A stretch of DNA of 64,000 nucleotides from Octopus vulgaris. Lineage: Eukaryota. Both the position numbers and the translations under genes were made by a program. The notes under the pieces are model-generated. The model had not been told where the DNA came from. It worked only from the letters and a program-made list of their open reading frames with translations, and ran no database searches. The DNA is taken from NCBI GenBank assembly GCA_951406725.2, contig OX597835.1, positions 35,650,001-35,714,000 of the forward strand. The letters are read 5' to 3'. Shown here piece by piece: positions 1,793 through 64,000 of this stretch. Each line of letters starts with the position of its first letter. The stretch's first letter is position 1.

Positions 1793-1849
1793 CAGGTTTT
1801 ATATAGAAAACTAGTGTTTAGTTTTACAAATTATATTGAATGTGGAACG

Positions 1850-1919
1850 ATCGTACTGATGAGTCTACGGACGAAGAATTACGTAATATATTCGGTAATA
1901 GAAGAAACCGGTATACGAT
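1850..1919 (+). ncRNA. Type I hammerhead ribozyme motif, canonical CUGAUGA box
   Basis: atcgta CTGATGA g-tcta...taga-a GAAAC CG GTA tacgat: perfect 6-bp stem I, palindromic ACCGGT stem III, GUA triplet; the 10.1-11.1 pair is a G/A mismatch. Confidence 0.75.
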
Positions 1920-2184
1920 TAATTCTTGATTTTTTGTAATTTTCATGTCTTGCCCGACTATGTTCTGGTGTTCTCTGAATTTTCTCTGAAGAGCATTCTT
2001 TTTTTGTAGTTAGATCGTATGTGATCTTCTTCTAGCATATGGCTATCCATCTAGTGGATTTTTTAGCCCTAAATATACACATGTATTGAAATTTTTTCTG
2101 ATTTTTCAGATTTTTTATATGCTAGGCTACTCGTTTTAAATTGATATTAATTAAATTAATGTTCAATTTATCTCCCTCGTTATT

Positions 2185-2242
<58 letters not shown>

Positions 2243-2444
2243 CGAAGAGAAGATCGATGTTGGACGTGGCGAAAAGCACGCATATATCTAACATATGTAC
2301 AAAGATATCTATCACTGTGGCATATGTATCTAGATTTTATACTCTTGTATACATAGATACACCCACACTCAACTCCCTCACAAACACAAAGCCCCACACA
2401 CGCACACACACACACACACACACACTCATATAGACATGTTTTTA

Positions 2445-2498
<54 letters not shown>

Positions 2499-2778
2499 CC
2501 AATTAAATATTTACACCCACACCTACACTCACTCACACATGTATCTATTAATGTATATATGCATGTGTCTATATGTGTGTTTATTCATGTGTGTGTGTGT
2601 GTGTGCATAAACAAGGTATATGTTTATATCCATATAGAGTATACACACGCGTGTGTGATTATGTATGTATGCGCATATACAACACTGTATATTACGTACA
2701 ATCATGTTAGTTTCCAGTTTACTTTGAAAAGTTTCATCACCTTTTTTATATGCACGAAAAGAAAACTATATGTATGTT

Positions 2779-2818
<40 letters not shown>

Positions 2819-2836
2819 TACAAAAACACACGCTTA

Positions 2837-2892
<56 letters not shown>

Positions 2893-4025
2893 TGTATATG
2901 CTGATATGTATATGGATATATATATATGCATGTACACCGGTTCCGTTTCCTCCCCTGTTTCCTGTAACGTATTTCATCCTAACACGTCCTCAGATTTACA
3001 AACAGATAATACACCAAACAAAGATATATAAATACTTATTCAGAAATCAGCCAAATACAAAATTACAAATATACAAATATTTAGTGTGTGTGTCTTTGCA
3101 TGCATGTGTGTGCTTCCCTGTGTGTGAGTGTGTGTCTGCATGCATATATTTGTGAATATATATATATATATATATATGTATATACATACATATATATATA
3201 TATGTATGTATATACATACATATATGTATATATATATATATGTGTGTGTGTATATATATATATACATACATACATACATATATATAAATATAAATCTGTG
3301 TGTGTATTGAAAAGCATATGAATATAGTTATACATATATACACATATATGTTTGTATATATGTATATATATATACAAATATACATACATATATATGTATA
3401 TATTAATAAATATATCGACAAATAAACGTGAGTATGTATATACTTACATACATACACATACAAATATATATACGTATATATATATATATATTAATGAATA
3501 TATAAACAATGTGTGAGTATATATATATATATATACTTATATAGTTACAAACACAGACACACACACACACACACACATATATACACTGAAGATGAGAAAG
3601 AGAGTAAGACCTATAGATAGAAAGATAGATAGATGACGTTTGTAGAAAATCATATAGACATGAAATGTTAGTTGGTCGTATATTATCATACACTAAAATA
3701 AAAAATGGAAAATTGAACGTAAAAAAAAATGGCGAAATATTTTTGTTGGCGTTATTATGTCTTGCCTGTGCCGTTAAAAAGTTTTGCTTGCAGCTCTTCG
3801 TGTGTGACGTGACTAAAGGCGAATCTTGAGAACAGGAAGAAACATTTACTCCGGTTATTGCTTTTGATTCTTGTTTTTTGAAAAATCCCTGCTTCTTCTT
3901 TCACTTCCTATCTCGCTCCAACCTCACACATAAACGCAGACACATCCTCACATACCCCCATATATAAGCCCTTTAATATATACATACATACATATATAAA
4001 TATATATATATATATACATACATAC

Positions 4026-4099
<74 letters not shown>

Positions 4100-4164
4100 C
4101 ATGCATATATGCATATGTATATATGTATACATGCATATATATATATACATATATATATATATGC

Positions 4165-4195
<31 letters not shown>

Positions 4196-4324
4196 CATAC
4201 ACATTTACATTTACACATTGTAGCATCACATATATTAAAATTGCGTTGTGTGTTTATGTATATATATTCACATATATATGTGCATATATATTTATATATA
4301 TTTATATATATATGCACATATATA

Positions 4325-4375
<51 letters not shown>

Positions 4376-5179
4376 AATATTAGGGAATAAATCCAAACTT
4401 ACGATCGTAGTGTGATATTAATTATATTTTTTAAATAATTTTGTTATATATTTAAATAATATAAATTAAATAATCTTATGTATTGGCTTAAGTTTTTCAT
4501 TGTTTGATTTGCCTAATAGTGGTTTTGTCTCTAATTTAATATAATATATATATATATATATAAAATCTTAGTACATATATAGACGTATACGTATAGTTAA
4601 ATATTTGTTTGTGTGTGTGTGTGTGGTGTGTACCTGTGTGTGTATGCGTGTGTGTTTGAATGTACTGTTTTGAATGAAAATTGGGCGGAAGAAAGATTGA
4701 AAGGACAAATGAGAAGGAGGTAAGCTGTAATTTGAACTCTGAACAGCTTGTAACAACATCAAATCTAAAATGTTACCAACATCCGAAGCAAACAATAGCT
4801 CAAATAATAGCTCAAATAATAATTACAACAACAACAACGATAATAACAATAATAACTGATTGGAAGTGTTAGCTTGTATGAATGATTGGAAGTGTTAGCA
4901 TATATAACTGATTGGAAGTGGTTTCATGTACATTGTTTTGTTTTGGTATAAAAGATGGGTTACAATAAATATTTTGTTCAGTACCACAGACTTGCTTGTC
5001 AGTTGGTTGACCTTAAAGCGGTTGAGCAGGTTCCTTAGGGTTTTCTTGTAAACACCGACAGAACGATCCAGGATAATCGACCAGATATAGGAGGGAATAA
5101 AATATTTGTAGGTGGCTTGTTCTTTGCAAATAATTATGTTTCTGCATAGAACATCATCTAAAATTTGCTTCGCTTCCGT

Positions 5180-5675
5180 AAAGTATGTACAAGATGGTGC
5201 TAAGAGAGCTTATCAAAGAGCATAATCGCAATCGCGTGGAGATCTGTTGATGCTTGCTCGACCGCTACAACAATGAAGGCAAAACTTTTTTGCAAGGAAA
5301 AGCCACAGGAGATGAGACTTGGGTTTATCACTTTGAGCCAGAATCCAAGAGGCAGATTTTGGAGTGGAAACATCCCGTATTGCAAATGCAAAAGAAATTC
5401 AGAACTTAATCTTCCACAGAAAAGTTATGCCAACCAGTTTTGGAGATGAAGAAGTACCCCTATTGGAGTATTACATGGAAAAAGAGCCTTCAGACAAAAG
5501 TGTAGGCTACAATAAAATGCTGGCCAGCAAACTGAAACCAGTAATTCGCACCAATCGCGCCGAATTGTATTGCCAAATCAAGTGTTATTGTTGCACGGCA
5601 ATGCCCGTCCAAATACAGCTGCCCACACCGTTGAAAACATTGTAAAATGGGGTTTCGAGTTGCTTGAACACCTTC
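5180..5675 (+). pseudogene. Mariner transposase remnant
   Basis: Frameshifted segments DETWVYHFEPESKRQILEWKH and VLLLHGNARPNTAAHTVENIVKWGFELLEH match mariner catalytic motifs (DETW; HDNARPH). Confidence 0.85.
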
Positions 5676-5856
5676 GCGTATTTACATGCATACATCCATA
5701 CATGCACGCGCGTACGCACACATACACACATGTATATAATTTTGAAGTTTATTTCTCAGCACTGAAAAATTATGGCATTTTGTATTGGAATCCGTTCATG
5801 GAAACAATGCGATCGAAGACAGAAAAATAGGTAACTGGTATATATGCACATTTCAA

Positions 5857-6087
5857 GGCGGCGAGCTGGCAGAATCGTTAGCATGCCGGGCGAAAAGCTT
5901 AGCAGTATTTCGTCTACCGCTACGTTCTGAGTTCAAATTCCGTGAAGTCGACTTTGCCTTTCATCCTTTCGGGGGTCGATTAAATAAGTACCAGTTACGC
6001 ACTGGGGTCGATATAATCGACTTAATCCGTTTGTCTGTCCTTGTTTGTTCCCTCTGTGTGTAGCCCCTTGTGGGCAATAAAGAAATA
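5857..6087 (+). mobile_element. tRNA-derived SINE with Meta-like central domain (MetaSINE-type), full length
   Basis: tRNA-like head ggcggcgagctggcagaatcgttagc, central gtcgactttgcctttcatcctttcggg..gtcgat..aagtaccag; ~20-bp TSD ggtatatat(g/a)cacatttca at 5837 and 6088. Confidence 0.85.
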
Positions 6088-6179
6088 GGTATATATACAC
6101 ATTTCAAGAGATATTGCCCTTTCATCAGCACCACATCCAAGCCATCAACTATTCACCAACGCTTAGACTACTACTACTT

Positions 6180-6237
<58 letters not shown>

Positions 6238-6655
6238 AACTACTACATCCACCACTAAGTTTAATGGTGGAACACTGCTGGATAGACCAATTAACATAAA
6301 CACATTCCTGGATGCTGCGTTGATTTAACCCTTTCAATGTGGTAACTGAATATATCCGCTCCAAATTTTATTACCGTTAGCTGGAAAGCGGTTTTACCCC
6401 CAAGGCTTTTAAAGAAACCCTCTTCATGCTGCAGGAAGCGGAGATCCCCCCGGTGTCGTTTTCAAAAGTCAATTTTTCAGATCGTAAAAGATGTTATTAA
6501 TATGTCTCATTAAGTATGTCTTTGCAGAGCTTGGATTAAGTAGTTTTAGCGTTGGATATGATGAAAATCGTATCTACAACAGGGACAGGAGATACTAGAA
6601 AAATATTGCCGAAGAGAGGGAAATTTTTTTTTCTATGGATAATAAATAAATAAAA

Positions 6656-6829
6656 GGCATAGGAGTGACTGTGTGGTAAGTAGCTTGCTTACGAACCACA
6701 TTGTTCCGGGTTCAGTCCCACTGCGTGGCACCTTGGGCAAGTATCTTCTACTATAGCCTCGAGCCGACCAATGCCTTGTGAGTGGATTTGGTAGACGGAA
6801 ACTGAAAGAAGTCCATCGTATATATATAT

Positions 6830-6916
<87 letters not shown>

Positions 6917-7140
6917 CGTGTGCGTGTGTGAGGTGTATATATGTTTGTGCCCCCCAACATCGTTTGACAACCGATGCTGGTCTGGTGTGTTTACGTCCCC
7001 CGTAACTTATCGGTTCGGCAAAAGAGAACGATAGAATAAGTACTAGGCTTACAAAGAATAAGTCCTGGGGTCGATTTGTTCAACTAAAGGTGGTGCTCCA
7101 GCATGGCCACAGTTAAATGACTGAAACAAGTAAAAGAGAG
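6656..7140 (+). mobile_element. tRNA-derived SINE family B, full length, with internal microsatellite
   Basis: Head gg(c)rcaggagtg..tgtgtggtaag, B-box-like gggttcagtccc, CORE-like accttgggcaagt, internal (TA)/(TG), tail tgctccagcatggcc..gactgaaacaagtaaaagag; more than 10 copies or fragments in the window. Confidence 0.85.
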
Positions 7141-7499
7141 TAATTAACATCATTACGGGAATAACTATGAATTTAATTTCACAGTCAAAGAAATAAACAG
7201 TCCACTGTTTCGTATTTAGTCTTTGTGAAACATTGCAACAATGACGTCTCCAGAAAAAAAAATGAAGGAAAGAAAGAAAGAAGAAAAATAAGATTTGAAC
7301 TGAAAGAATCCTATCAGCAGTATTCATTCATTCCTACTCGTTTTATCCCTAGTTCAAATCCGCCAAAGTCAAACTCGGCGTCTATTTTCTCCATTCGGGG
7401 GCAGTAAGATATAGCACCAGTGAAAGACTAGGATTGAGTTAATCGATTTATTACCAATCACATTGGCACAAACTTGCTTGAAATTAAAAATTCTCCCCC

Positions 7500-14228: not shown

Positions 14229-15103
14229 CTAGCAGAATTGCCCGGCGATGCTCGGGGCTGAATTGCTTGAAAGTACTGTTAATGATTGCACTGAATTATG
14301 ATGATTATTCAGGCAAATATTGATATAAGTTTACGGTGGGAGATAAGGACTTAACGATCAAACGTGTGCCATTGCATTGTTTTGGGGGAACCAAATTTCT
14401 AATGAGCATTATAGGGGCACCAACTTTAAGTTTGAGAATGTGTGGTGGTAGTCCGGGGGGCTCAAAGGAATTGAGTACCTCTATTGGATAGTTGATGACG
14501 TCCTCTGGGTCAGGAGTTGTATCGATAGACTTATATACATAGACTTCCCCAGGAATGATTTTTTGCATTTCATCATTAATATGGTGAACAGTTTTATTCC
14601 TCGGGGCCAGAATAGCCCTTTGGCCAATCCAATCCATATTCTGATAATTAGCTTGTAGATCTGGGAACACTGCATCTCTGAGATCAGAAGGCGTTTTAAC
14701 AATGGTACAAATGGAATCGATGGCAATATTACCATTTTCATCCCCTGGTATTTTGCCTTCGCCAAGTTGAGAGTTAAAAAGGTCGAGTTGCGTCCCCTAG
14801 ACAGTCTGTACCAGGAATAGCTGGATATTGATGGAGTTGAGGGTTAAAAAGGTCGAGTTGCGCCCCCTAGACAGTCTGTGGTTTATGTTTCTGATTCTCG
14901 ACCCCATGTCAAATTTATCGATTTTTTTCAGAACTGGGGAAACTTTTCAAAATTTTCGCTGCGTTAGTTTTGAATTATGACATTGGGCTATGTGTGTGTC
15001 AAGTTTCATCAGAATCGGTTGAAAACCGTGGTCAGAGTGAGGGTACAACCTAACAGACACACAGACACGCACACAGACAAACTGCCGTTTATATATAGAG
15101 AGA
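14229..15103 (-). mobile_element. Internally deleted Helitron with both ends
   Basis: 5' TCTCTCTATATATAAAC at 15103, 3' hairpin cccg-agcatcgc-cggg then CTAG at 14229, inserted between A and T; carries a helicase fragment and a 44-bp internal duplication (14766/14836). Confidence 0.9.
14305..14670 (-). pseudogene. Helitron RepHel PIF1-like helicase fragment
   Basis: RAILAPRN..V..IN, LNSFEPPGLPPHILKLKVGAPIMLIRNL..CNGTRL are hallmark Helitron helicase motifs. Confidence 0.92.
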
Positions 15104-15218
15104 TTCGGCGTATACCCATCTATATACACATACAGAATTAGCTAAACCTACATAATCCTGGGAGTAGTTTTCTCCATTAATCTCGATACTCCATTGCAGC
15201 GATAATTTCTAATACACA

Positions 15219-15580
15219 GGCGCAGGAGTGGCTGTGTGGTAAGTAGCTTGCTTACCAACCAAATGGTTCCGGGTTCAGTCCCACTTCCTGGCACTTTAAG
15301 CAAGTGTCTTCTACTATAGCCTCGGGCCGACCAAAGCCTTGTGAGTGGATTTGGTAGACGGAAACTGAAAAAAGCCAGTGTGTCTGTGTTTGTCCCCCCC
15401 CTCCCACATCGCTTGGCAACCGATGCTGGTCTGGTGTGTTTACGTCCCTGTAACTTAGCGGTTCGGCAAAAGAGATCGATAGAATAAGTACTGGGCTTCC
15501 AAAGAATAAGTCCTGGGATCGATTTGCTTGACTAAAGGCGGTACTCAAATGACTGAAACAAGTAAAAGAGTAAAAGAGTA
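15219..15580 (+). mobile_element. SINE family B
   Basis: Colinear with 6656-7140, without the internal microsatellite. Confidence 0.88.
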
Positions 15581-15949: not shown

Positions 15950-16338
15950 TTTTACTGCGGCCATGCTGGAGCGCCGCCTTTAGTCGAGTAAATCGACCCC
16001 AGGACTTATTCTTCGGAAGCCTAGTACTTATTTTATCGGTCTGTTTTGCCGAACCGCTAAGTTACGGGGACGTAAACACACCACCATCGGTTGTCAAGCG
16101 ATGTTGGGGGGGGGACAAACATACACACACAAATATACACACACATACAAACATATATATATACATACATATATACGATTGGCTTCTTTCAATTTCCGTC
16201 TACCAAATCCACTCACAAGGCATTGGTCGGCCCGAGGCTATAGTAGAAGACACTTGCTCAAGGTGCCACACACTGGGACTGAACCCGGAACCATGTGGTT
16301 CGTAAGCAAGTTACTTATCACACAGTCACTCCTGCGCC
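15950..16338 (-). mobile_element. SINE family B
   Basis: Reverse-complement copy, tail-to-tail with 15219-15580. Confidence 0.88.
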
Positions 16339-16621
16339 TATTTAACTTTGTTAAAGATTGCTAAGTCTTGGTTTGTACTTTTGTATGAAAATATTTTCTT
16401 TGGTTATCCGTGCTTCATCTGTAGTGTTTGCTGAACATAGGTAGTGGTAAGACCTGGAATTTGGGGGACTTAGGTGTAAAAAAACTGACTATTCTCTACC
16501 AATTAAATCATATTCAAAACATACTAATTTGAGCTATGGACACCCTATAAAAACAGGGCAAGCTCCGAACACTAGTCAGAACCAAGACAGCTGCGACATA
16601 AGCCACGCCTTTCTATTTGAA

Positions 16622-18619: not shown

Positions 18620-19257
18620 GTAATCAAAGGTGCAGAAATAGCGTACTCCGAATAAATGAGGTGACGTAATACCATGGTAGAGAGACATCCATCAGTCGTG
18701 TACTCCAAAACTGTCGGAAGGACGTGGGGTTCATGTGAGCGTGCAGGACATAATCCAAAAAATGATTTAAAAAACGGAGAAAAAAATCAAAGAAAAATAC
18801 AAGAAGCATCGTGAGGAAGTAGTAGATGCAAAGTATTAATGAGACGCTCAGAGAAAGAAAAAAGTAGTTGTTTTATATTTCGAAACAGGAAAAACAGAAA
18901 AGTCCAAAGAAAAAGAATCGCCAGTAGACCACGGGTAGTTACATTTTTGAAGTGCTCGGGAAGGTTGGGTGGTAAAGTGACTACAGCGCCTGGGAGCGGA
19001 GTGGGGGAGTAGGATCGGAGAGAAGGGGGTAAAAGTGTGGGAAGAAGGGTTGGAATGGATAGGTAGGAGTGTCTAGGTGGAGAGCATGTGAGGGTTGGGT
19101 GCGGAAGTGGAAGGTGTAGTGATAGGGAGGGGAAGGTGTGGTGGCGCGGGTGGTGAAGATCTAGAAGGAAGCGGAGAATAGGTTGGATGAAGTACGGAGG
19201 GCAGAGGGAGGAAAGGAAAAGGTAAGCGTGCGGGAGTTGGTGGACAAGGGAGTGGTT

Positions 19258-19356: not shown

Positions 19357-19988
19357 GAGGAGGCGGGAAGTGCAGGCGAGGATGGGTTCGATGAAGGGAG
19401 AAGAATAGGGGGTAACGTAGAACTTTAAGGGGAAGTCACGCGGTGTGACGTGATGATGGAAGCAACGGCTACGGAAAGAGAGATGGGTTGACTGGCGAGT
19501 TTTTTAAACAGCAAGTGAGAGATTTATATAAAGGATTGCAGACATTGAGGAGGAAGGTTGAAAAGAAAACGGGAGAGAAGAGGATGAAGGAATGGAGGTC
19601 CGGTGTGAATGTAGGTGGTAGGTGTGGGAGATGGTGAAGAGGAGGAAAAAGGAAGGAGGGTGGAAGGAGAACTGAAGTAAAATCAAGGGAAGGGAAGTGA
19701 AGCGGAAGAGTCACTGACAAATGATAAAGATTCACAATCAAAGGTGCAGAAATGGCGCGCTACGAAAGAATAAAGTGATGTAACACAATGGTAGAGAGAA
19801 ATCCAAGTATTAGGTTCTCCAAAACAGTCGGAAAGATGAGGGGTCCAGGTTAGCCTGCAGTAAATAATTAATTCAAAAAACGGAACAAAAAAGAAATAGA
19901 GAAGTCAACAAGAAAGAAAAAATAAAGAACGCCAGTACGTAGTAGATGCAAAGTGTTAATAAGGCGTTCGAGGGCGAAAAGAGTAGTC

Positions 19989-20023
19989 GTTTTACATTTC
20001 GAGCCTAGCTCTTCTTCGGAAAC
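19989..20023 (-). ncRNA. Minimal hammerhead motif (U4C core)
   Basis: Minus strand gttt CCGAAGA A GAGC-TAG-GCTC GAAAT GTA aaac. Confidence 0.6.
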
Positions 20024-20289
20024 AGGAAAAACAGGAAAGTCCAAAGGAAAAGAATCGCGAATAGTCCACGTGTAGTTATATTTTTTACACGTGGAATATT
20101 GGCGATTTTCCTTCCTTCTTTTTCCTTTGGACTTCTCTCTTTTTCCTGTTTCCGAAGGGAAGCTAGGCTCGAAACCTTAATCATCTACTCTTTTCCTTCT
20201 CCGAGGGCCTTATTAATACATGGCATGTGCTACGTCCTGATTTTGTTTTTCTTGTTGACTTTTTTCTCTCTCGGTATGTGTGCGTGTGT

Positions 20290-20582: not shown

Positions 20583-20639
<57 letters not shown>

Positions 20640-20644
<5 letters not shown>

Positions 20645-21100
20645 ATATAATTAGGGTTCAGCGACGATTAGCTTCACCACACACCGAAGTTTAGAAATAG
20701 CAGTCAAAATCCTAGCTATTCTTTCTACTTTAAAGGGAGTTCCCAGGAAAACCAAAGCACTTGAAAACAAATATTTGTGAAATATGTGAAATAATTGAGA
20801 TACGATTATTTATGATTATGGAATCCTACGCTGAAGAGACGAAAATAGTCGGGTAAGGTATGATTATTTATTATTTATGCTTTATAGTGGCTTAATTCCG
20901 AAACGTGCGTCCGTAGGCAACGTATTATAGAATGATTTTCGTCATTTTTTCCCCTTTTGCCTACGTGGTTTGTTTTCAAGTGCTTTAGTTTTTCTGGGAA
21001 CTCCATTTAAAGTAGAAAGAATAGCTAGGATTTTGACTGCTATTTCTAAACTTCGGTGTGTGGTGAAGCTAATCGTTGCTAAACCCTAATTATATAGTAT
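20640..21100. repeat. 132-bp inverted repeat enclosing a hammerhead (PLE fold-back unit)
   Basis: Arms 20640-20771 and 20969-21100 are near-perfect reverse complements; 197-bp spacer. Confidence 0.9.
20825..20917 (+). ncRNA. Type I hammerhead ribozyme motif, fully canonical core
   Basis: cctacg CTGAAGA G...C GAAAC GTGC GTC cgtagg: perfect 6-bp stem I, G10.1-C11.1, ACG/CGT stem III, GUC triplet; predicted cleavage after 20911. Confidence 0.8.
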
Positions 21101-21199
21101 TACTTAAACTTACCATAAAATGGTTTTTTTCATGCCGAATTCTACTTGGTGAAATTACTAATTACTTCTTAATTTAAAAAATTTCACCCTTTGTTATTA

Positions 21200-21244
<45 letters not shown>

Positions 21245-22524: not shown

Positions 22525-22725
22525 ACCGCGTGTGTATCGTTGGCGATTTTCTTTCTCTGTCTTCCCTTCCTTGGACATTTCCTCTCTAGGTTTCTGACGA
22601 AGAGCTCTGCTCGAAACGTTAAATCCTTCTTCATTCTTTCCTTTCCTGAGCGTCCAATAACACTATACTTGTTCCACGTTCTAGCATTGTTGTGTTTTCT
22701 CTTTGTTCATGTTTGGATTAATTAT
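22525..22725 (+). mobile_element. PLE pLTR fragment family B
   Basis: Homologous to 27110-27293 (downstream of the GIY-YIG ORF) and 56435-56625 (-). Confidence 0.7.
22589..22625 (+). ncRNA. Minimal hammerhead motif, canonical CUGACGA box
   Basis: ggttt CTGACGA A GAGC-TCT-GCTC GAAAC GTT aaatc: 5-bp stem I (one GU), loopless palindromic ACGT stem III. Confidence 0.72.
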
Positions 22726-23378: not shown

Positions 23379-23509
23379 AACACACAGACTAAGGCACAAA
23401 CATACATACACACACACACGCACACGCACACACACATACACAAACACATAACTATACATACATAATGCATACATATATATATATGTATGTATGTATCTAT
23501 CTATCAATA

Positions 23510-23548
<39 letters not shown>

Positions 23549-23549
<1 letters not shown>

Positions 23550-24320
23550 GCCGCGACCAGGATTTCGAGACCCAGTCTCAATACCTGGCCCGCCTGTTCA
23601 GGCTTCGAGGATACCCACCTACCCTGGTCTTGAACGCCCTCGCCCGCGCTCGTCGCATCCACCGCACCACCGCCCTTTCTCCTTCCAATCACCCATCACC
23701 CAACCGCACCCCCTTTCCCCTCCTTTTCCCCCCCTCTACTCTACCCCTTCGTCGGAAGATACTTCGTGCCTTCCGTCGTCTCCAGCTCGATTCCACGACT
23801 CACCGCATTTTTCTCCAACCCACCCCTATCCTCCTTCAAACGAGCCCGGAATCTACGCGACCTCCTGGTCCGTAGCACCCTCCCTTCTTCCCCCTCGGCC
23901 CCACTCGGATCCTTCCCGTGCTCCAGATCCCGCTGCAACTTCTCCCCCTTCATCACCCACACCACTGCTGTCACCGGTTCCAACCGGCGAACTGTACGTA
24001 TCAGGCATTCTTTTACGTGCACCTCGTCTGGACTCATATACTGCATTAAATGCAACCTCTGCGGAATGCTGTATATAGGACAGACGGGACGCCAGTTGTC
24101 AGACCGATTCGCCGAACATCTGATTGATGTTCGTCTACCCTCCGATTCTCCCGTCGCACGTTACTTCCGCTCGGCCAGCCATTCCCCCGATGACATCTCG
24201 GTGTTTGGTCTTGCCCCACACAACGGCTCTCCACAATCTAGGCTTCACTTGGAGCATCGGCTCATATTCCTTCTACAGACTCTAACCCCACACGGACTCA
24301 ACACAGCCCCCTCCTCTTAG
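23549..24320 (+). pseudogene. PLE (Neptune-type) RT thumb plus GIY-YIG endonuclease, 5'-truncated, one frameshift
   Basis: LFRLRGYP thumb motif, then FKRARNLRDLLV, C..RC linker, FTCTSSGLIYCIKCNLCGMLYIGQTGRQLSDRFAEH...LEHRLIFLLQTLTPHGLN. Confidence 0.92.
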
Positions 24321-27029: not shown

Positions 27030-27293
27030 AACTCTCTTGTTTTTAAAAATCATGATTCGTCTACCTCTCAACTTCTGTTCTTTCAACATGTGATCTCTTG
27101 AGCACCACCAGCAAAAATATTTTTTTCGTCTGTCTTCCCTTCTTGGGATCTTTCCTTCTCCTTGTTTCCGACGAAGAGCTCCGCTCGAAACGTTAAACCC
27201 TCCTTCCCTTCTTTCCTGAGCGTCAAATAATACTTTAATTGTGTCACGTCCTCGCGTTGCTGTTTTTTTCTGTGTTTTCTTGTTTGGATTATC
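27030..27293 (+). mobile_element. PLE pLTR family B with HHR motif at 27164-27198
   Basis: gttt CCGACGA A GAGC-TCC-GCTC GAAAC GTT aaac. Confidence 0.7.
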
Positions 27294-39054: not shown

Positions 39055-39392
39055 AAAATATTTTTATATAAAACAATTCAGTACCAGTTTCGGTCATTGA
39101 GACTTTTTCAACAGTAAGTATGGAAAACAATTAAATTTTGGAAAAATTTTAATGAAAACATTTTTAATGAAATCTTGTGGGTTCGAGGTCGTTCGAAGTC
39201 ACAAGAGTAAACAAGAGAGACAGAGACAAGCAGAAACAAGGAAAATGACCATTGCATTTGGATACAATGCAAATATTCTTTTAAAACAGTTTTCATATAA
39301 TTTTTCCAAAATGTAATTGTTTTCCATACTTAGAGTTGAAAAAGCCTCAATGACCGAAACCAATACTGATATGTTTTTTATAAAATTATTTT
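39055..39392. repeat. ~110-bp inverted repeat with a U3:A8 HHR motif in each arm
   Basis: Arms ~39055-39167 and ~39281-39392; TTGAAAA AG(T/C)C-TCAAT-GACC GAAAC at 39079-39114 (-) and 39333-39368 (+). Confidence 0.75.
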
Positions 39393-56324: not shown

Positions 56325-56625
<301 letters not shown>

Positions 56626-57372: not shown

Positions 57373-57625
57373 AGTTGAATGATATTTCGACGGCTAGCCT
57401 GTCTTCGTCGAGTTCAAAATGAAAAGTGATAAAAATTCAAAATTAGAGAAATTCAAATCCAAGATATGAACGAGAGCAACCAGTGTTCACACGCTGTTGG
57501 AATGACATCATCAGTCTTCAAATTTCAATTTCATAACAGGCAAAAAGAAAAAGAAGAGAAACAGAGGAAAAAAGAAAGAAAAGGGAGAAGAAGAAGAATA
57601 TTTGATCAAAGAGTTTTGTGTAATT

Positions 57626-57936
57626 AACACTTATCGCCAAGCTAATATGGCAGTAAATAAATATAGGACGAAAGCTGCCGTTGATTACCTCCAAGAGGCC
57701 ATCGCTAGAGGAGATGGTCAGCAGCGATGCCTGCTGAGTTTGGCTACTCTTCATTGATAAAGGGCAAATACCCTGAAACATGTCTGCGGATGCTTGACCA
57801 CCAAGGGGAAGCGGCTGACCTCCCCTGTTCGAATGAATACATGTTTGTGTGTCATATAGCTAGCCTCTTGGAACTAATCAACGGCAGCGTTCGTCTTATA
57901 TTTATGGACTGCTGCATTAGCTTGGCGATAACTGTT
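57626..57936. repeat. 74-bp inverted repeat enclosing a hammerhead
   Basis: Arms 57626-57699 and 57863-57936. Confidence 0.85.
57748..57790 (+). ncRNA. Type I hammerhead ribozyme motif, U3:A8 compensatory core
   Basis: tcttca TTGATAA AGGG-CAAATA-CCCT GAAAC AT GTC tgcgga: palindromic ACATGT stem III, GUC triplet, stem I 5/6. Confidence 0.72.
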
Positions 57937-58178
57937 GATATCCAGTATCACTGTCGTATTCTCCTTTAGGGAGACTTAGAAATAATATTTCTAGTTTTGT
58001 GTAAAGTTGATAAAATCCTTCTGTCATTTTATTCATTCCTCCAGGGCGTGATGTTAATAACCCACAAACGTATTTCTCCTGATGCATTTTGCTGACTAGA
58101 ATTGTAGCATACACACACAGACACACACAGACACACACACACAGCCACACACACACACACACACAAACACATATATAC

Positions 58179-61654: not shown

Positions 61655-61970
61655 TGTCACGTGACAACTTGCTGGGGTTGCCTGCTGGAGCCTATGCGGC
61701 AGGTATTTAAAGGAAAAATTTGACAAGACAGTCAGTCACCGGCTGACACTCGCTGACGACACATCGAAGAGGCCATGGAACAGAAGAAAGAAGAAGAAAG
61801 AAGACATGTACCCAACACCAGAGCTGAAGACACCTCGGAAAGGGGGAAGTGCCCCGCCACGTCAATACGGTAGAGGAGTAGGGGCCGAAACCGGACGTGG
61901 TTCCTCCTGATGATGTCTTGAGCTAACTGGATCCTATAAAGGAGCTGTTGAGGTTGCAGACCACGTAACA
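61655..61970 (+). mobile_element. Possible solo LTR
   Basis: TGTCACGTG...CACGTAACA inverted termini (8/9), TATA-like tatttaaa; no TSD seen. Confidence 0.3.
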
Positions 61971-62399
61971 CGGTTGTAATTCCTCCTTAGTTCTTAATGC
62001 GTTTGGGCGGATTTGAGTTGGAATATGCGCACCGTTGTCGTGTTTGGTGACAGCTTCTCCTTCACGACAAATATGTATTACGACGTACTCGAGTTATTCG
62101 TTCAAGAGATCTGGGACACCCGTTGTTTCGACATCGTCCTTACTAGTCAGCCTGTTGTACCATCGGCACTAACGTATCTTACAAGCATTTGTGGCTGTTT
62201 GCTGATTGGTGCTGGTATCTGCCAACCGATAATAATTCCTCGGAACAACAACTGTCACTTGTAGTTGTACTTATACATTCGCCGTAGAGAATAAGTGTTT
62301 TTCCTGTGACGAAGCAAAGCGGCGATTAGCACATTCACATTTGAATATGTCGAAACGTATTCAGAATATACAAGGCATAGAAAAATAAAATTAGATCTA

Positions 62400-63137
62400 C
62401 AGGGGTTGGACAAAATAATGGTAACGCCTTAAAATTTCAAACAAATTTATTTTAATAAGGAGTAGGACCGCCTTAGGCAGTAATTACAGCTTCAATTCTA
62501 CAAGGTATGGTCTCGTAAAAGTTTGAATTGTTTCAATTTTTATCAATTCTTCAGATAAAACAGTCTCCAGTTCTTGTAGTGATGATGCTGGAGGATATCG
62601 ACTCCTTACTTATTTTTCTAAAATGTACCATAAATGTTCAATGATATTGAGATGTGAGGACAGATAAGATGTTCAACTTCACCAGAATGTTCCTCGTGCC
62701 ATTCAGTAACAACCTTAGCTGTGCGAATTGGTGCATTATCATCCTGAAAGATTGCGTTCCCCTCCAGAAACAGTTCCGCAGCCATAGGATGCGCTTGATG
62801 AGATAAAATGCTTAAATAGTCTTGACTATTAATTCTGCAATGAAGGAAAACCATTGGGTCGGCGGATTTCCAAGATATAGCCCCCGCCACCCAAACCATA
62901 ACAGTTGGATGAAGGCGGTCTGGGTCAAATGCTTCTTTTGGCTGTCTCCACAGATATACTCGGCCGGTGGTCGGAAATAAGGTAAAGAATGATTCGTCCG
63001 AAAAAATAACATTCTTCCACTGCTCTAGGAACCAATTCTGGAGGTTTTTAATCCACTCTAAACGCTTTGCAACATTTGTTTTTTGGAAATAGTGTTTTTC
63101 TGATTGCAGATCTCCCGTGAAATCCGACTTTGCAGGC
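62400..63137 (-). pseudogene. Tc1-like transposase remnant with one TIR
   Basis: TA|CAGGGGTTGGACAAAATAATGG terminus; MVW..AIS...INSQDYLSIL...IFQDDNAPIRTAKVVTEW catalytic region, frameshifted. Confidence 0.9.
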
Positions 63138-64000
63138 CATCACTACTGTAGTGGTGTTGCCAGGTAGAAAGTGATAACTGTGATCGACAGTTTCACTTCG
63201 AAAATGACATTCCACCACAGAATCTTGAAGGCCGACCGCTAAAGTCGAATTGTAGAGGACACTTTGAGAATTCTGTTCCTTAGATTAGAAATGAACTCTA
63301 TATTTGAGTTGAAATAAATTTTCATTCTCTCATAATTTTCAGCCATGGAGCGAGTAACAAAATATCAGACCAGACCTCCAAGGAATGGACGACTTAACAA
63401 GATAAAGCAATAAAATTTACAAATAAAACCTTCTGGACAAACAAAACGAAATATAATTTTATTGAGTTTCTCGCACATAATCAGACACCTCGGAGGATGA
63501 AGAAGAAGAAGAAGGAGGAGGGGGAGGAGGGGGAGAAGAAGAAGAAGGAGGAGGAGGAGAAGAAAAAAGGAAAGAAGGAGAAAGCAAATGAGTAGAAAAA
63601 GGATGTGGAGGAAAAAGAAGAAAACGGTGGATGATAAGAAGAGAAAATAATTAGAAAAATAAAATTAAGAAGGATGAAGAGAAAGCGAAATCGTTGAAGG
63701 AAGAGGAAGAAGAACAAAAGGATATCACACCAAGATTCAGACATGTTGATAACGACGATCATGATCATGATGATTATGATGAATTTCATGTAATTTAAAA
63801 TTAAGATGCGTTTGAGTATCCATATATCAATACATAATGCGTAGGCACACGCGCACACATACTTGCATACATACATACATACATACATACATACATGCAT
63901 ACATGCATACATACATACATACATACATATATATATATATATCCGCCACAAGTGCATAGACACGTGTATCTATAGAGGCATAAGTTAGCATAAACTTATA

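What the first reader, a model, noticed from the sequence alone, without database searches (positions are those of the whole stretch)
20640..21100. Canonical hammerhead caged inside a 132-bp inverted repeat, with a competing anti-stem
The 197-bp loop of a near-perfect IR holds the best HHR in the window (cctacg/cgtagg stem I, CUGAAGA, GAAAC, GUC). A downstream ttgcctacg (20957-20965) can pair 9 bp with cgtaggcaa (20912-20920), out-competing stem I. The unit resembles a MITE, but its RNA would be a long hairpin with a switchable self-cleaving loop. Inverted pLTRs are known in PLEs; whether such units move or function on their own is my inference.
Basis: partly seen in the sequence, partly recalled or inferred. 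Interest (0 to 1): 0.8.

Follow-up and report, generated by a model that had tools for sequence, protein, structure and literature searches.

The report
Two-armed retroelement stub with latched hammerhead
The mirror-image repeat, the hammerhead ribozyme motif and the downstream blocking strand are all in the sequence, but the unit is most likely one ordinary head-to-head insertion of a ribozyme-carrying jumping repeat rather than a mobile RNA switch, and the blocking strand is a family trait predicted to latch the ribozyme off once it has been transcribed.

Summary
The 132-bp inverted repeat (126/132), the type I hammerhead core and the 9-bp anti-stem are real. The hammerhead is not canonical: 62 nt separate the core halves without a clean closing stem II, stem III is a dimer-type palindrome, and Rfam gives 22.3 bits against a cut-off of 34. 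The unit is not a MITE. Contigs from four public runs show the repeat family running about 100 bp past the right arm into a TA microsatellite, and other copies folding back at about eight other points. This is the described head-to-head layout of Penelope-type insertions: an inverted truncated copy, a longer forward copy and a tail. The cage is an accident of unequal truncation. The anti-stem is shared by the family (mostly with one G·U) and exceeds chance (0-12 of 5000 shuffles). It is predicted to abolish stem I irreversibly, so it is a latch, not a switch; such blocks are known from viroids, plant retrozymes and some mussel retrozymes. Cleavage, transcription and circles are untested. Earlier scan notes describe the same layout, and a long-stem-II family, on other DNA of this genome. 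Verdict: new member of a known kind, interest 0.25.

The parts
20610..20642 (.). Left target: (AT)n microsatellite, preceded by (ATAC)n from about 20561
   Evidence: Sequence
20643..20771 (-). Inverted, 5'-truncated copy of the repeat (left arm), equal to 20969-21097 of the forward copy; its outer end matches the family's first preferred end (~21100)
   Evidence: 126/132 identity to the right arm; loose ends behind 21087 run into TA-rich flank in 14, 18 and 6 contigs of X1, X3, X4
20767..20778 (.). 12-bp palindrome at the head-to-head junction
   Evidence: Self-match in blastn
20772..21202 (+). Forward, 5'-truncated copy of a non-coding hammerhead-bearing repeat (431 nt; longest stop-free frame 52 codons)
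   Evidence: All 30 bins covered by repeat contigs in 4 of 4 runs; frames
20825..20917 (+). Type I hammerhead motif: stem I 20825-30/20912-17, core 20831-37, GAAA 20900-03, predicted cut after 20911
   Evidence: 0 of 11 listed differences in this span fall in the 27 core and stem I positions (p about 0.018, from the 40 of 78 differences shown)
20838..20899 (+). Over-long stem II region (62 nt); either one long irregular helix or a 3-bp hairpin (20838-50) followed by a second helix
   Evidence: Constrained folds; 6 of 9 listed differences at paired positions keep the long helix (p about 0.04, weak)
20903..20910 (+). Stem III: 2 bp with a 4-nt loop; self-complementary 8-mer suited to a dimeric hammerhead
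   Evidence: Self-duplex -8.8 kcal/mol; 20907 G>A in 21-41% of depth makes it a perfect palindrome
20912..20965 (+). Blocking hairpin: 9-bp anti-stem (20912-20/20957-65) enclosing an 8-bp inner hairpin (20929-48); would be the 5' end of the cleaved RNA
   Evidence: (z -3.4, 2 of 200 shuffles); 20963 A>G in 76-86% of depth in 4 runs turns one pair into G·U
20969..21100 (+). Right arm: ordinary internal part of the forward copy, not a terminus
   Evidence: 5 of the 32 listed contig pieces (3593 in all), from X1, X2 and X4, bridge 21100 with 31 or more letters on each side
21101..21202 (+). Tail present on one side only (~102 nt), ending at the family's second preferred end
   Evidence: Summed depth 1e4-3e5 at 21126-63; loose ends behind 21174 in 34, 34, 38 and 9 contigs match the window's last 30 nt and then TA
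21203..21244 (.). Right target: (AT)21 microsatellite
   Evidence: Sequence

Best explanation
This is most likely a single insertion of a non-coding, hammerhead-bearing retro-repeat (retrozyme or pLTR type), probably copied by a Penelope-like reverse transcriptase/GIY-YIG enzyme into an (AT)n tract, and it consists of a short inverted copy joined head to head to a longer forward copy with a one-sided tail. Shown: the layout, the TA target, the two preferred outer ends (~21100 and ~21202), variable apices among other copies, and the family-wide anti-stem. Inferred: the arms were made in one event, either by priming from both ends of a cut or by fold-back of the cDNA. The hammerhead sits in the loop only because the inverted copy stopped at 20969 while the forward copy reached 20772. 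Predicted for the family RNA: stem I can form for a short time after 20917 is made, allowing cleavage during transcription, probably as a dimer in tandem copies. The anti-stem then captures the 3' strand of stem I, which would release the 5' product and stop re-cleavage of a ligated circle. This particular copy has one hammerhead, no tandem partner and private changes, so it is probably an inert fossil; any read-through RNA would be a long double-stranded hairpin with the ribozyme off.
For:: the family continues past the arm (5 of 32 listed pieces bridge 21100); two end clusters run into TA; 15 of 17 joints were shown, and the 12 rows with letters between collapse by eye to about 8 distinct apices (inverted arm to / forward copy from: 20703/21039, ~20727/21043, 20767/20966, 20685/~21114, 20708/21031, ~20729/~21020, ~20737/~21003, ~20727/~20914). 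The apex bin 20784-802 has 6-20 times lower summed depth than the hammerhead bins in 4 of 4 runs. Both arms depart from the family majority in the same way at three mirrored places (20670/21070, 20675/21065, 20712/21028), as expected for one template. The layout matches the passages read in PMC8557442 (inverted 5'-truncated copy, tail, (TA)n bias), PMC3846280 (head-to-head, palindromes at the junction) and PMC8969392. Folding. Blocked hammerheads in circles: PMC7229834 discussion, PMC4918200 passages. Dimeric short helix III: PMC4209133 passages. A GIY-YIG fragment lies at 23634-24317 (Pfam E 0.006, below cut-off), so such elements occur in this genome.
Against: No autonomous partner was linked to this family. 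The tail is about 102 nt, against 30-40 nt in PMC8557442. No tandem copy or monomer length was seen, so retrozyme versus bare pLTR is open. The runs hold at most 28% of the stretch's words, so they mostly show relatives or other copies, not this locus. Summed contig depth is no copy number; joint sides are short (20-48 letters, one 82); only 32 of 3593 pieces, 40 of 78 differences and 24 of 371 loose ends were shown. 3 of 9 differences break the long stem II, and the commonest one at 20839 breaks the small hairpin. The active fold costs about 7 kcal/mol even without the anti-stem (no known active ribozyme was run as a control). None of the 6 other hammerhead-like motifs tested in the window has a comparable anti-stem, so the latch is not general.
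Confidence: 0.75

Rival explanations
1. A MITE (TA or TAATTA target) of a cut-and-paste DNA transposon that captured a hammerhead fragment between its terminal repeats.
For: Long near-perfect arms, no coding capacity, TA on both outer sides of the arms. This was my first reading (55%).
Against: The right arm is not a terminus: the family continues about 102 nt. Apices differ among copies. The loop is family sequence continuous with the right arm (pieces spanning 20912-21034 and 20926-21069).
Confidence: 0.05
2. The fold-back unit is itself a secondary mobile RNA or regulatory device: a hairpin RNA with a ribozyme that can be toggled.
For: The anti-stem is beyond chance and wins energetically by about 6 kcal/mol. 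The arms are young (4.5% apart). Some contigs do cover the apex bin (depth 46-513).
Against: No trigger: P(anti-stem) 0.97-0.98 with and without arms. With the left arm present, stem I already falls to 0.12 by 20925. The anti-stem belongs to the family, not to the fold-back. None of 32 listed pieces bridges the apex.
Confidence: 0.05
3. Same insertion history, but the hammerhead of this family is catalytically dead or the anti-stem is incidental: a relic of an old local inversion or duplication, with no selected role.
For: Non-canonical stem II base; sub-threshold Rfam score; 8 of 9 tested Xenopus retrozyme dimers did not cleave (bioRxiv 2026.07.22.740005); no compensatory double change was seen in the anti-stem; a weak internal duplication 20789-20821 vs 20843-79 (26 of 2000 shuffles) shows local rearrangement.
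Against: Listed differences avoid the core and stem I (p about 0.018); the 20907 and 20963 differences keep or improve pairing; one other copy's forward arm starts at about 20914, 2 nt after the predicted cut (1 of about 8 apices, read by eye).
Confidence: 0.15

Closest known systems
Insertions of endonuclease-positive Penelope-like elements with inverted pLTR and tail (PMC3846280; PMC8557442 Fig. 2 legend; PMC8969392; passages read)
   Same: Inverted 5'-truncated copy head to head with a forward copy, palindrome at the junction, one-sided tail, (TA)n target without discernible TSD, type I hammerhead in the repeat.
   Different: Tail about 102 nt instead of 30-40; no ORF remnant and no partner element identified; hammerhead has a 6-bp stem I and a 62-nt stem II region rather than the minimal PLE form.
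Animal non-LTR retrozymes (PMC7229834: results part 1 of 3, section 14 and discussion read; bioRxiv 10.64898/2026.07.22.740005: parts 1-3 of 5 read; supplements of both not seen)
   Same: Non-coding, AT-rich, a few hundred nt, type I hammerhead with 6-bp helix I and short palindromic helix III, proposed mobilisation by PLEs.
   Different: No tandem copy here. Most metazoan retrozyme circles are predicted to leave the hammerhead free, whereas this family blocks it by self-pairing, as reported only for some mussel circles. Stem II is far longer than the 4 bp given as typical in PMC4209133.
Blocked hammerheads of plant LTR retrozymes and viroid-like circles (PMC4918200 passages; PMC7229834 discussion)
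   Same: A complementary strand pairs with the ribozyme in the finished RNA and is predicted to prevent cleavage.
   Different: There most of a type III motif is paired within a long rod; here a local 9-bp strand 40 nt downstream takes only the 3' strand of stem I. No LTR, PBS or PPT was looked for.
MITEs (PMC8969392 passage)
   Same: Short, non-coding, long inverted repeats on a self dot plot.
   Different: The inverted repeats are not terminal, and copies do not share internal junctions.

Membership tests
MITE | Inverted repeats form both termini | tested here: not met
   Family sequence continues 21101-21202 on the right only
MITE | Many copies of one uniform unit | tested here: not met
   About 8 other apices; apex bin least covered in 4 of 4 runs; no second copy in the window. 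Contigs of other samples only, so not final
MITE | Superfamily-specific TSD and a cognate transposase | tested here: inconclusive
   Both flanks are (AT)n, so no TSD can be read; no genome is held for a partner search
EN+ Penelope-type insertion | Inverted 5'-truncated copy head to head with a forward copy | tested here: met
EN+ Penelope-type insertion | One-sided 30-40 bp tail | tested here: inconclusive
   One-sided tail present but about 102 nt
EN+ Penelope-type insertion | Microsatellite (TA)n target | tested here: met
   20610-42 and 21203-44; TA-rich loose ends in other copies
EN+ Penelope-type insertion | Homology to the pLTR of an RT + GIY-YIG element | not testable with these tools
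   No genome; no match elsewhere in the window
Non-LTR retrozyme | Type I hammerhead in a short non-coding repeat | tested here: met
Non-LTR retrozyme | Tandem units each with a hammerhead | tested here: inconclusive
   Single sub-unit copy here; no go-back joint among the 15 of 17 shown, but contigs break in repeats
Non-LTR retrozyme | Self-cleavage and circular RNA | not testable with these tools
   Needs bench work or raw RNA reads
Canonical type I hammerhead | Consensus core and cleavage triplet | tested here: met
   CUGAAGA, GAAA, GUC
Canonical type I hammerhead | Helix I 6 bp; helix III 1-2 bp with palindromic loop | tested here: met
   definition from PMC4209133
Canonical type I hammerhead | Helix II about 4 bp closing the core directly, with loop 1-loop 2 contact | tested here: not met
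   62-nt region; one pair plus bulge, or an inserted hairpin; Rfam 22.3 < 34 bits
RNA switch | Two near-isoenergetic states and a trigger | tested here: not met
   Stem I state 6-11 kcal/mol above the ensemble once the anti-stem is present; no trigger sequence in three contexts. A protein trigger cannot be tested here

The most novel reading that the evidence does not exclude
An animal retrozyme family has evolved a built-in timer: a hammerhead with an extra-long, possibly branched stem II that can cut only during the roughly 45 nucleotides of transcription before a local anti-stem snaps shut, after which the same hairpin caps the 5' end of the product, protects the ligated circle from re-cutting, and stalls reverse transcriptase so that inverted arms break off at its foot. 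That would give a concrete answer, for this family, to the open question in PMC7229834 of how animal retrozyme circles avoid self-cleavage.
Probability: 0.3. Interest if true: 0.5.

Novelty: new member of a known kind. Interest (0 to 1): 0.25.

Why it matters
As a locus it matters little: it is one of many two-armed stubs. It is a useful warning that Penelope-type insertions mimic MITEs and caged ribozymes. The family-level point is modestly useful: a compact, natural stem-I latch and an unusual stem II in an animal type I hammerhead give a simple bench test of how retrozyme circles keep their ribozyme off, and the two preferred ends about 100 nt apart bear on how Penelope-type enzymes build inverted insertions.

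Tried and rejected
No whole genome is held, so no copy census or family alignment could be made. No second copy of arm, loop or tail in the window. Metagenome scan with a short hammerhead motif: 14 loci, 0 of 14 with an upstream core; all look like chance matches in GC 45-69% DNA and were dropped. Whole-window Rfam: the 150 of 480 rows shown were microsatellite-driven miRNA matches below cut-off; 0 matches at gathering level. Bacterial promoter scan is irrelevant to an animal locus. ADAR-type hyperediting (lead from e1-8673030): only 6 arm mismatches, mixed in direction (20663 looks like A>G, 20987 like G>A against the majority), so rejected. A 35-nt GT-AG stretch inside stem II (20853-87) was considered as an intron; removing it would not restore a normal stem II (by eye), not pursued. 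A second 9-nt complement (20935-43 to 20838-46) is borderline (69 of 5000 shuffles) and competes with a local hairpin; not used. Stalling at the anti-stem foot: 2 of about 9 apices lie within 8 nt of 20965, roughly p 0.16 by a hand estimate; kept only as a lead. In one search the control at 1915 was set one base off, so its anti-stem count is approximate. In one search the pair 20852-20887 was added after I had seen the difference there; without it 5 of 8 differences keep pairing. Earlier-findings look-ups by sequence and by nearby place found nothing.

Full report
Setting. The window is AT-rich, microsatellite-laden animal DNA (GC 26-43%). Earlier scan notes call the genome octopus; I did not test that. 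No whole genome is held, so family evidence comes from one laying of public contigs.

Observation. The inverted repeat is exact as described: 20640-20771 and 20969-21100, 126 of 132 identical, no gaps, fold -256 kcal/mol, z -29. The hammerhead elements are at the stated places. TTGCCTACG at 20957-65 is the perfect complement of 20912-20. Shuffles of the downstream sequence gave such a helix in 0-1 of 5000 trials for the next 54-104 nt, 2-12 of 5000 with one G·U allowed, and 8-10 of 5000 for 174-277 nt. The region was chosen after the fact, but 0 of 6 other hammerhead-like motifs tested in the window show more than 5-6 bp.

The hammerhead is not canonical. Sixty-two nucleotides (20838-99) lie between CUGAAGA and GAAA. 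Constrained folding closes the core either with one G-C pair, a 2-nt bulge and a long irregular AU/GU helix, or with a 3-bp helix after an inserted 3-bp hairpin. The loop of that small hairpin resembles loop 2 of canonical animal motifs; this is recalled and untested. Rfam scores the motif 22.3 bits against a cut-off of 34. One-pair stems II can be active (PMC3088659, passages). Stem III has 2 bp and a self-complementary loop (self-duplex -8.8 kcal/mol), the form that PMC4209133 (passages) and PMC7229834 (passages) associate with cleavage as a dimer. Among the 40 of 78 differences shown, 11 fall in 20825-20917 and none in the 27 core and stem I positions (p about 0.018). The one in stem III perfects the palindrome. 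Six of nine at paired stem II positions keep the long helix and three break it (p about 0.04; unphased, one pair added after the fact). This suggests the family's ribozyme was under selection; it does not show that this copy cuts.

What the unit is. Contigs of four runs (coded organisms A, A, B, C; at most 28% of words shared) were laid at 80% likeness. All 30 bins are covered in all four. (i) The family continues past the right arm: 5 of 32 listed pieces bridge 21100 by 31 or more letters each side, and loose ends behind 21174 (34, 34, 38, 9 contigs) follow the window to about 21202 and then TA. (ii) A second end cluster lies at about 21100 (14, 18, 6 contigs in X1, X3, X4), where the left arm stops. 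(iii) Joints from the left arm to the right side mark other fold-back copies; reading the letters between by eye gives about eight distinct apices, several with almost no loop. (iv) The bin just inside this copy's apex has the lowest summed depth in each run (265, 513, 269, 46, against 1900-7300 over the hammerhead in X1-X3 and 350-510 in X4), and no listed piece bridges it. Depth is no copy number and 3561 pieces were not shown, so this is suggestive only. (v) Both arms differ from the family majority in mirror fashion at three places. Both flanks are (AT)n and a 12-bp palindrome sits at the junction. The unit is therefore 20643-21202: inverted truncated copy, longer forward copy, tail. One X4 contig matches 20924-21035 with no difference, so this locus or a very close copy may be in that run.

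Comparison. PMC8557442 (passages) describes an inverted 5'-truncated copy at the 5' end, a 30-40 bp one-sided tail and (TA)n targets. PMC3846280 (passages) describes head-to-head arrangements with palindromes at the junction and reads them as self-priming. PMC8969392 (passages) notes inverted pLTRs and short 3' extensions. The bioRxiv preprint 10.64898/2026.07.22.740005 (parts 1-3 of 5; supplements closed) links animal retrozymes to PLE pLTRs and found cleavage in 1 of 9 dimers tested. The tail here is longer than described, and no autonomous partner was tied to this family; a GIY-YIG fragment at 23634-24317 (E 0.006, below cut-off) shows only that such elements are nearby. My first reading was MITE at 55%. 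and the earlier notes arrived together and changed it; I took PMC3846280 and PMC7229834, and the wording 'two-armed, two fixed ends', from those notes. Notes e1-8666544 and e1-8667016 describe a 492-495-nt long-stem-II family in this genome. This copy may belong to it or to a relative, but sequence look-ups returned nothing, so identity is untested.

The anti-stem. It is a family trait: 76-86% of depth in four runs carries 20963 A>G, which turns one pair into G·U and keeps nine pairs; no compensatory double change was seen. Equilibrium folding of growing transcripts gives P(stem I) 0.64 at 20917, 0.12-0.46 up to 20961 and 0.00 from 20965; with the left arm in front it is 0.95 at 20917 and 0.12 by 20925. 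The anti-stem adds about 6 kcal/mol against the active fold, and nothing in the arms or tail reopens it. The 3' cleavage product is predicted to begin with this hairpin. So the prediction is a one-way latch. PMC7229834 (discussion) says viroid and plant retrozyme circles block their hammerheads by complementary sequence, that most animal circles do not, and that some mussel circles are the exception; PMC4918200 (passages) describes the plant case. The latch is thus a known principle in a local form. One other copy's forward arm starts about 2 nt after the predicted cut (1 of about 8 apices), while this copy reads 140 nt through an intact site; together these fit copying from cleaved and from uncleaved or circular RNA, but this is inference from two cases.

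Literature reach. Seven full-text searches listed no paper on this family or on a local stem-I anti-strand in an animal type I hammerhead; only listings were seen except for the seven papers named. Supplementary figures of PMC7229834 (S4-S6, mussel structures) were not seen and could already show a similar block.

Verdict. Observation mostly right, interpretation partly right. New member of a known kind; interest 0.25. Best explanation 0.75; dead-relic variant 0.15; MITE 0.05; mobile switch 0.05. The most novel reading not excluded, a timed ribozyme whose latch protects the circle, has probability about 0.3 and interest 0.5.

Noticed in passing
window 1849-1921 (+): A second hammerhead-like motif with a 7-bp stem I, CUGAUGA, a small hairpin right after the core and about 40 nt before GAAAC, cut triplet GUA. 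Same general design as the finding's long stem II but no sequence similarity (13 of 200 shuffles), no Rfam hammerhead match, and stem I not predicted.
   Followed up: partly
window 22586-22623 (+), 27160-27198 (+), 56534-56570 (-), 19990-20027 (-), 20144-20181 (+); weaker matches near 572-627, 45256-93, 57267-304: A family of minimal Penelope-type hammerhead motifs, about 80% alike over 150 nt, several ending in TA tracts; some have C in place of U at the second core position.
   Followed up: partly
window 19903-20260: Another fold-back (about 72% over 305 aligned nt) with a decayed minimal hammerhead on each strand, and a further copy of its left part at 18622-18948, about 1115 nt upstream: an older head-to-head insertion of a different family.
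   Followed up: partly
window 39055-39392 and 57623-57939: Two more inverted repeats (113 bp, 87%; 77 bp, 86%) with 113- and 163-nt spacers; no hammerhead motif passed my scans inside them.
   Followed up: no
window 61816-61910 (+) and 62100-62174 (-): Two hammerhead-core-like motifs with 28-56 nt between the core halves and poor stem I; could be rearranged motifs of the kind in earlier notes, or chance.
   Followed up: no
window 23393-24320 (+): Frameshifted fragment of a Penelope-type ORF end with a GIY-YIG motif (Pfam E 0.006, below cut-off), 5'-truncated after a TA tract.
   Followed up: partly
window 14305-14796 (-) and 62618-63139 (-): Pif1 helicase 2B fragment (E 1e-14; Helitron-like by recall) and a DDE_3 transposase fragment (E 0.0015).
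   Followed up: no
window 20789-20821 vs 20843-20879: The sequence before the hammerhead resembles the inside of its long stem II (26 of 2000 shuffles); the long stem may have grown by a local duplication.
   Followed up: partly
window 15218-15541 / 15974-16339: Inverted pair (77% over 373 nt) of a dispersed SINE-like repeat seen several times in the window.
   Followed up: no
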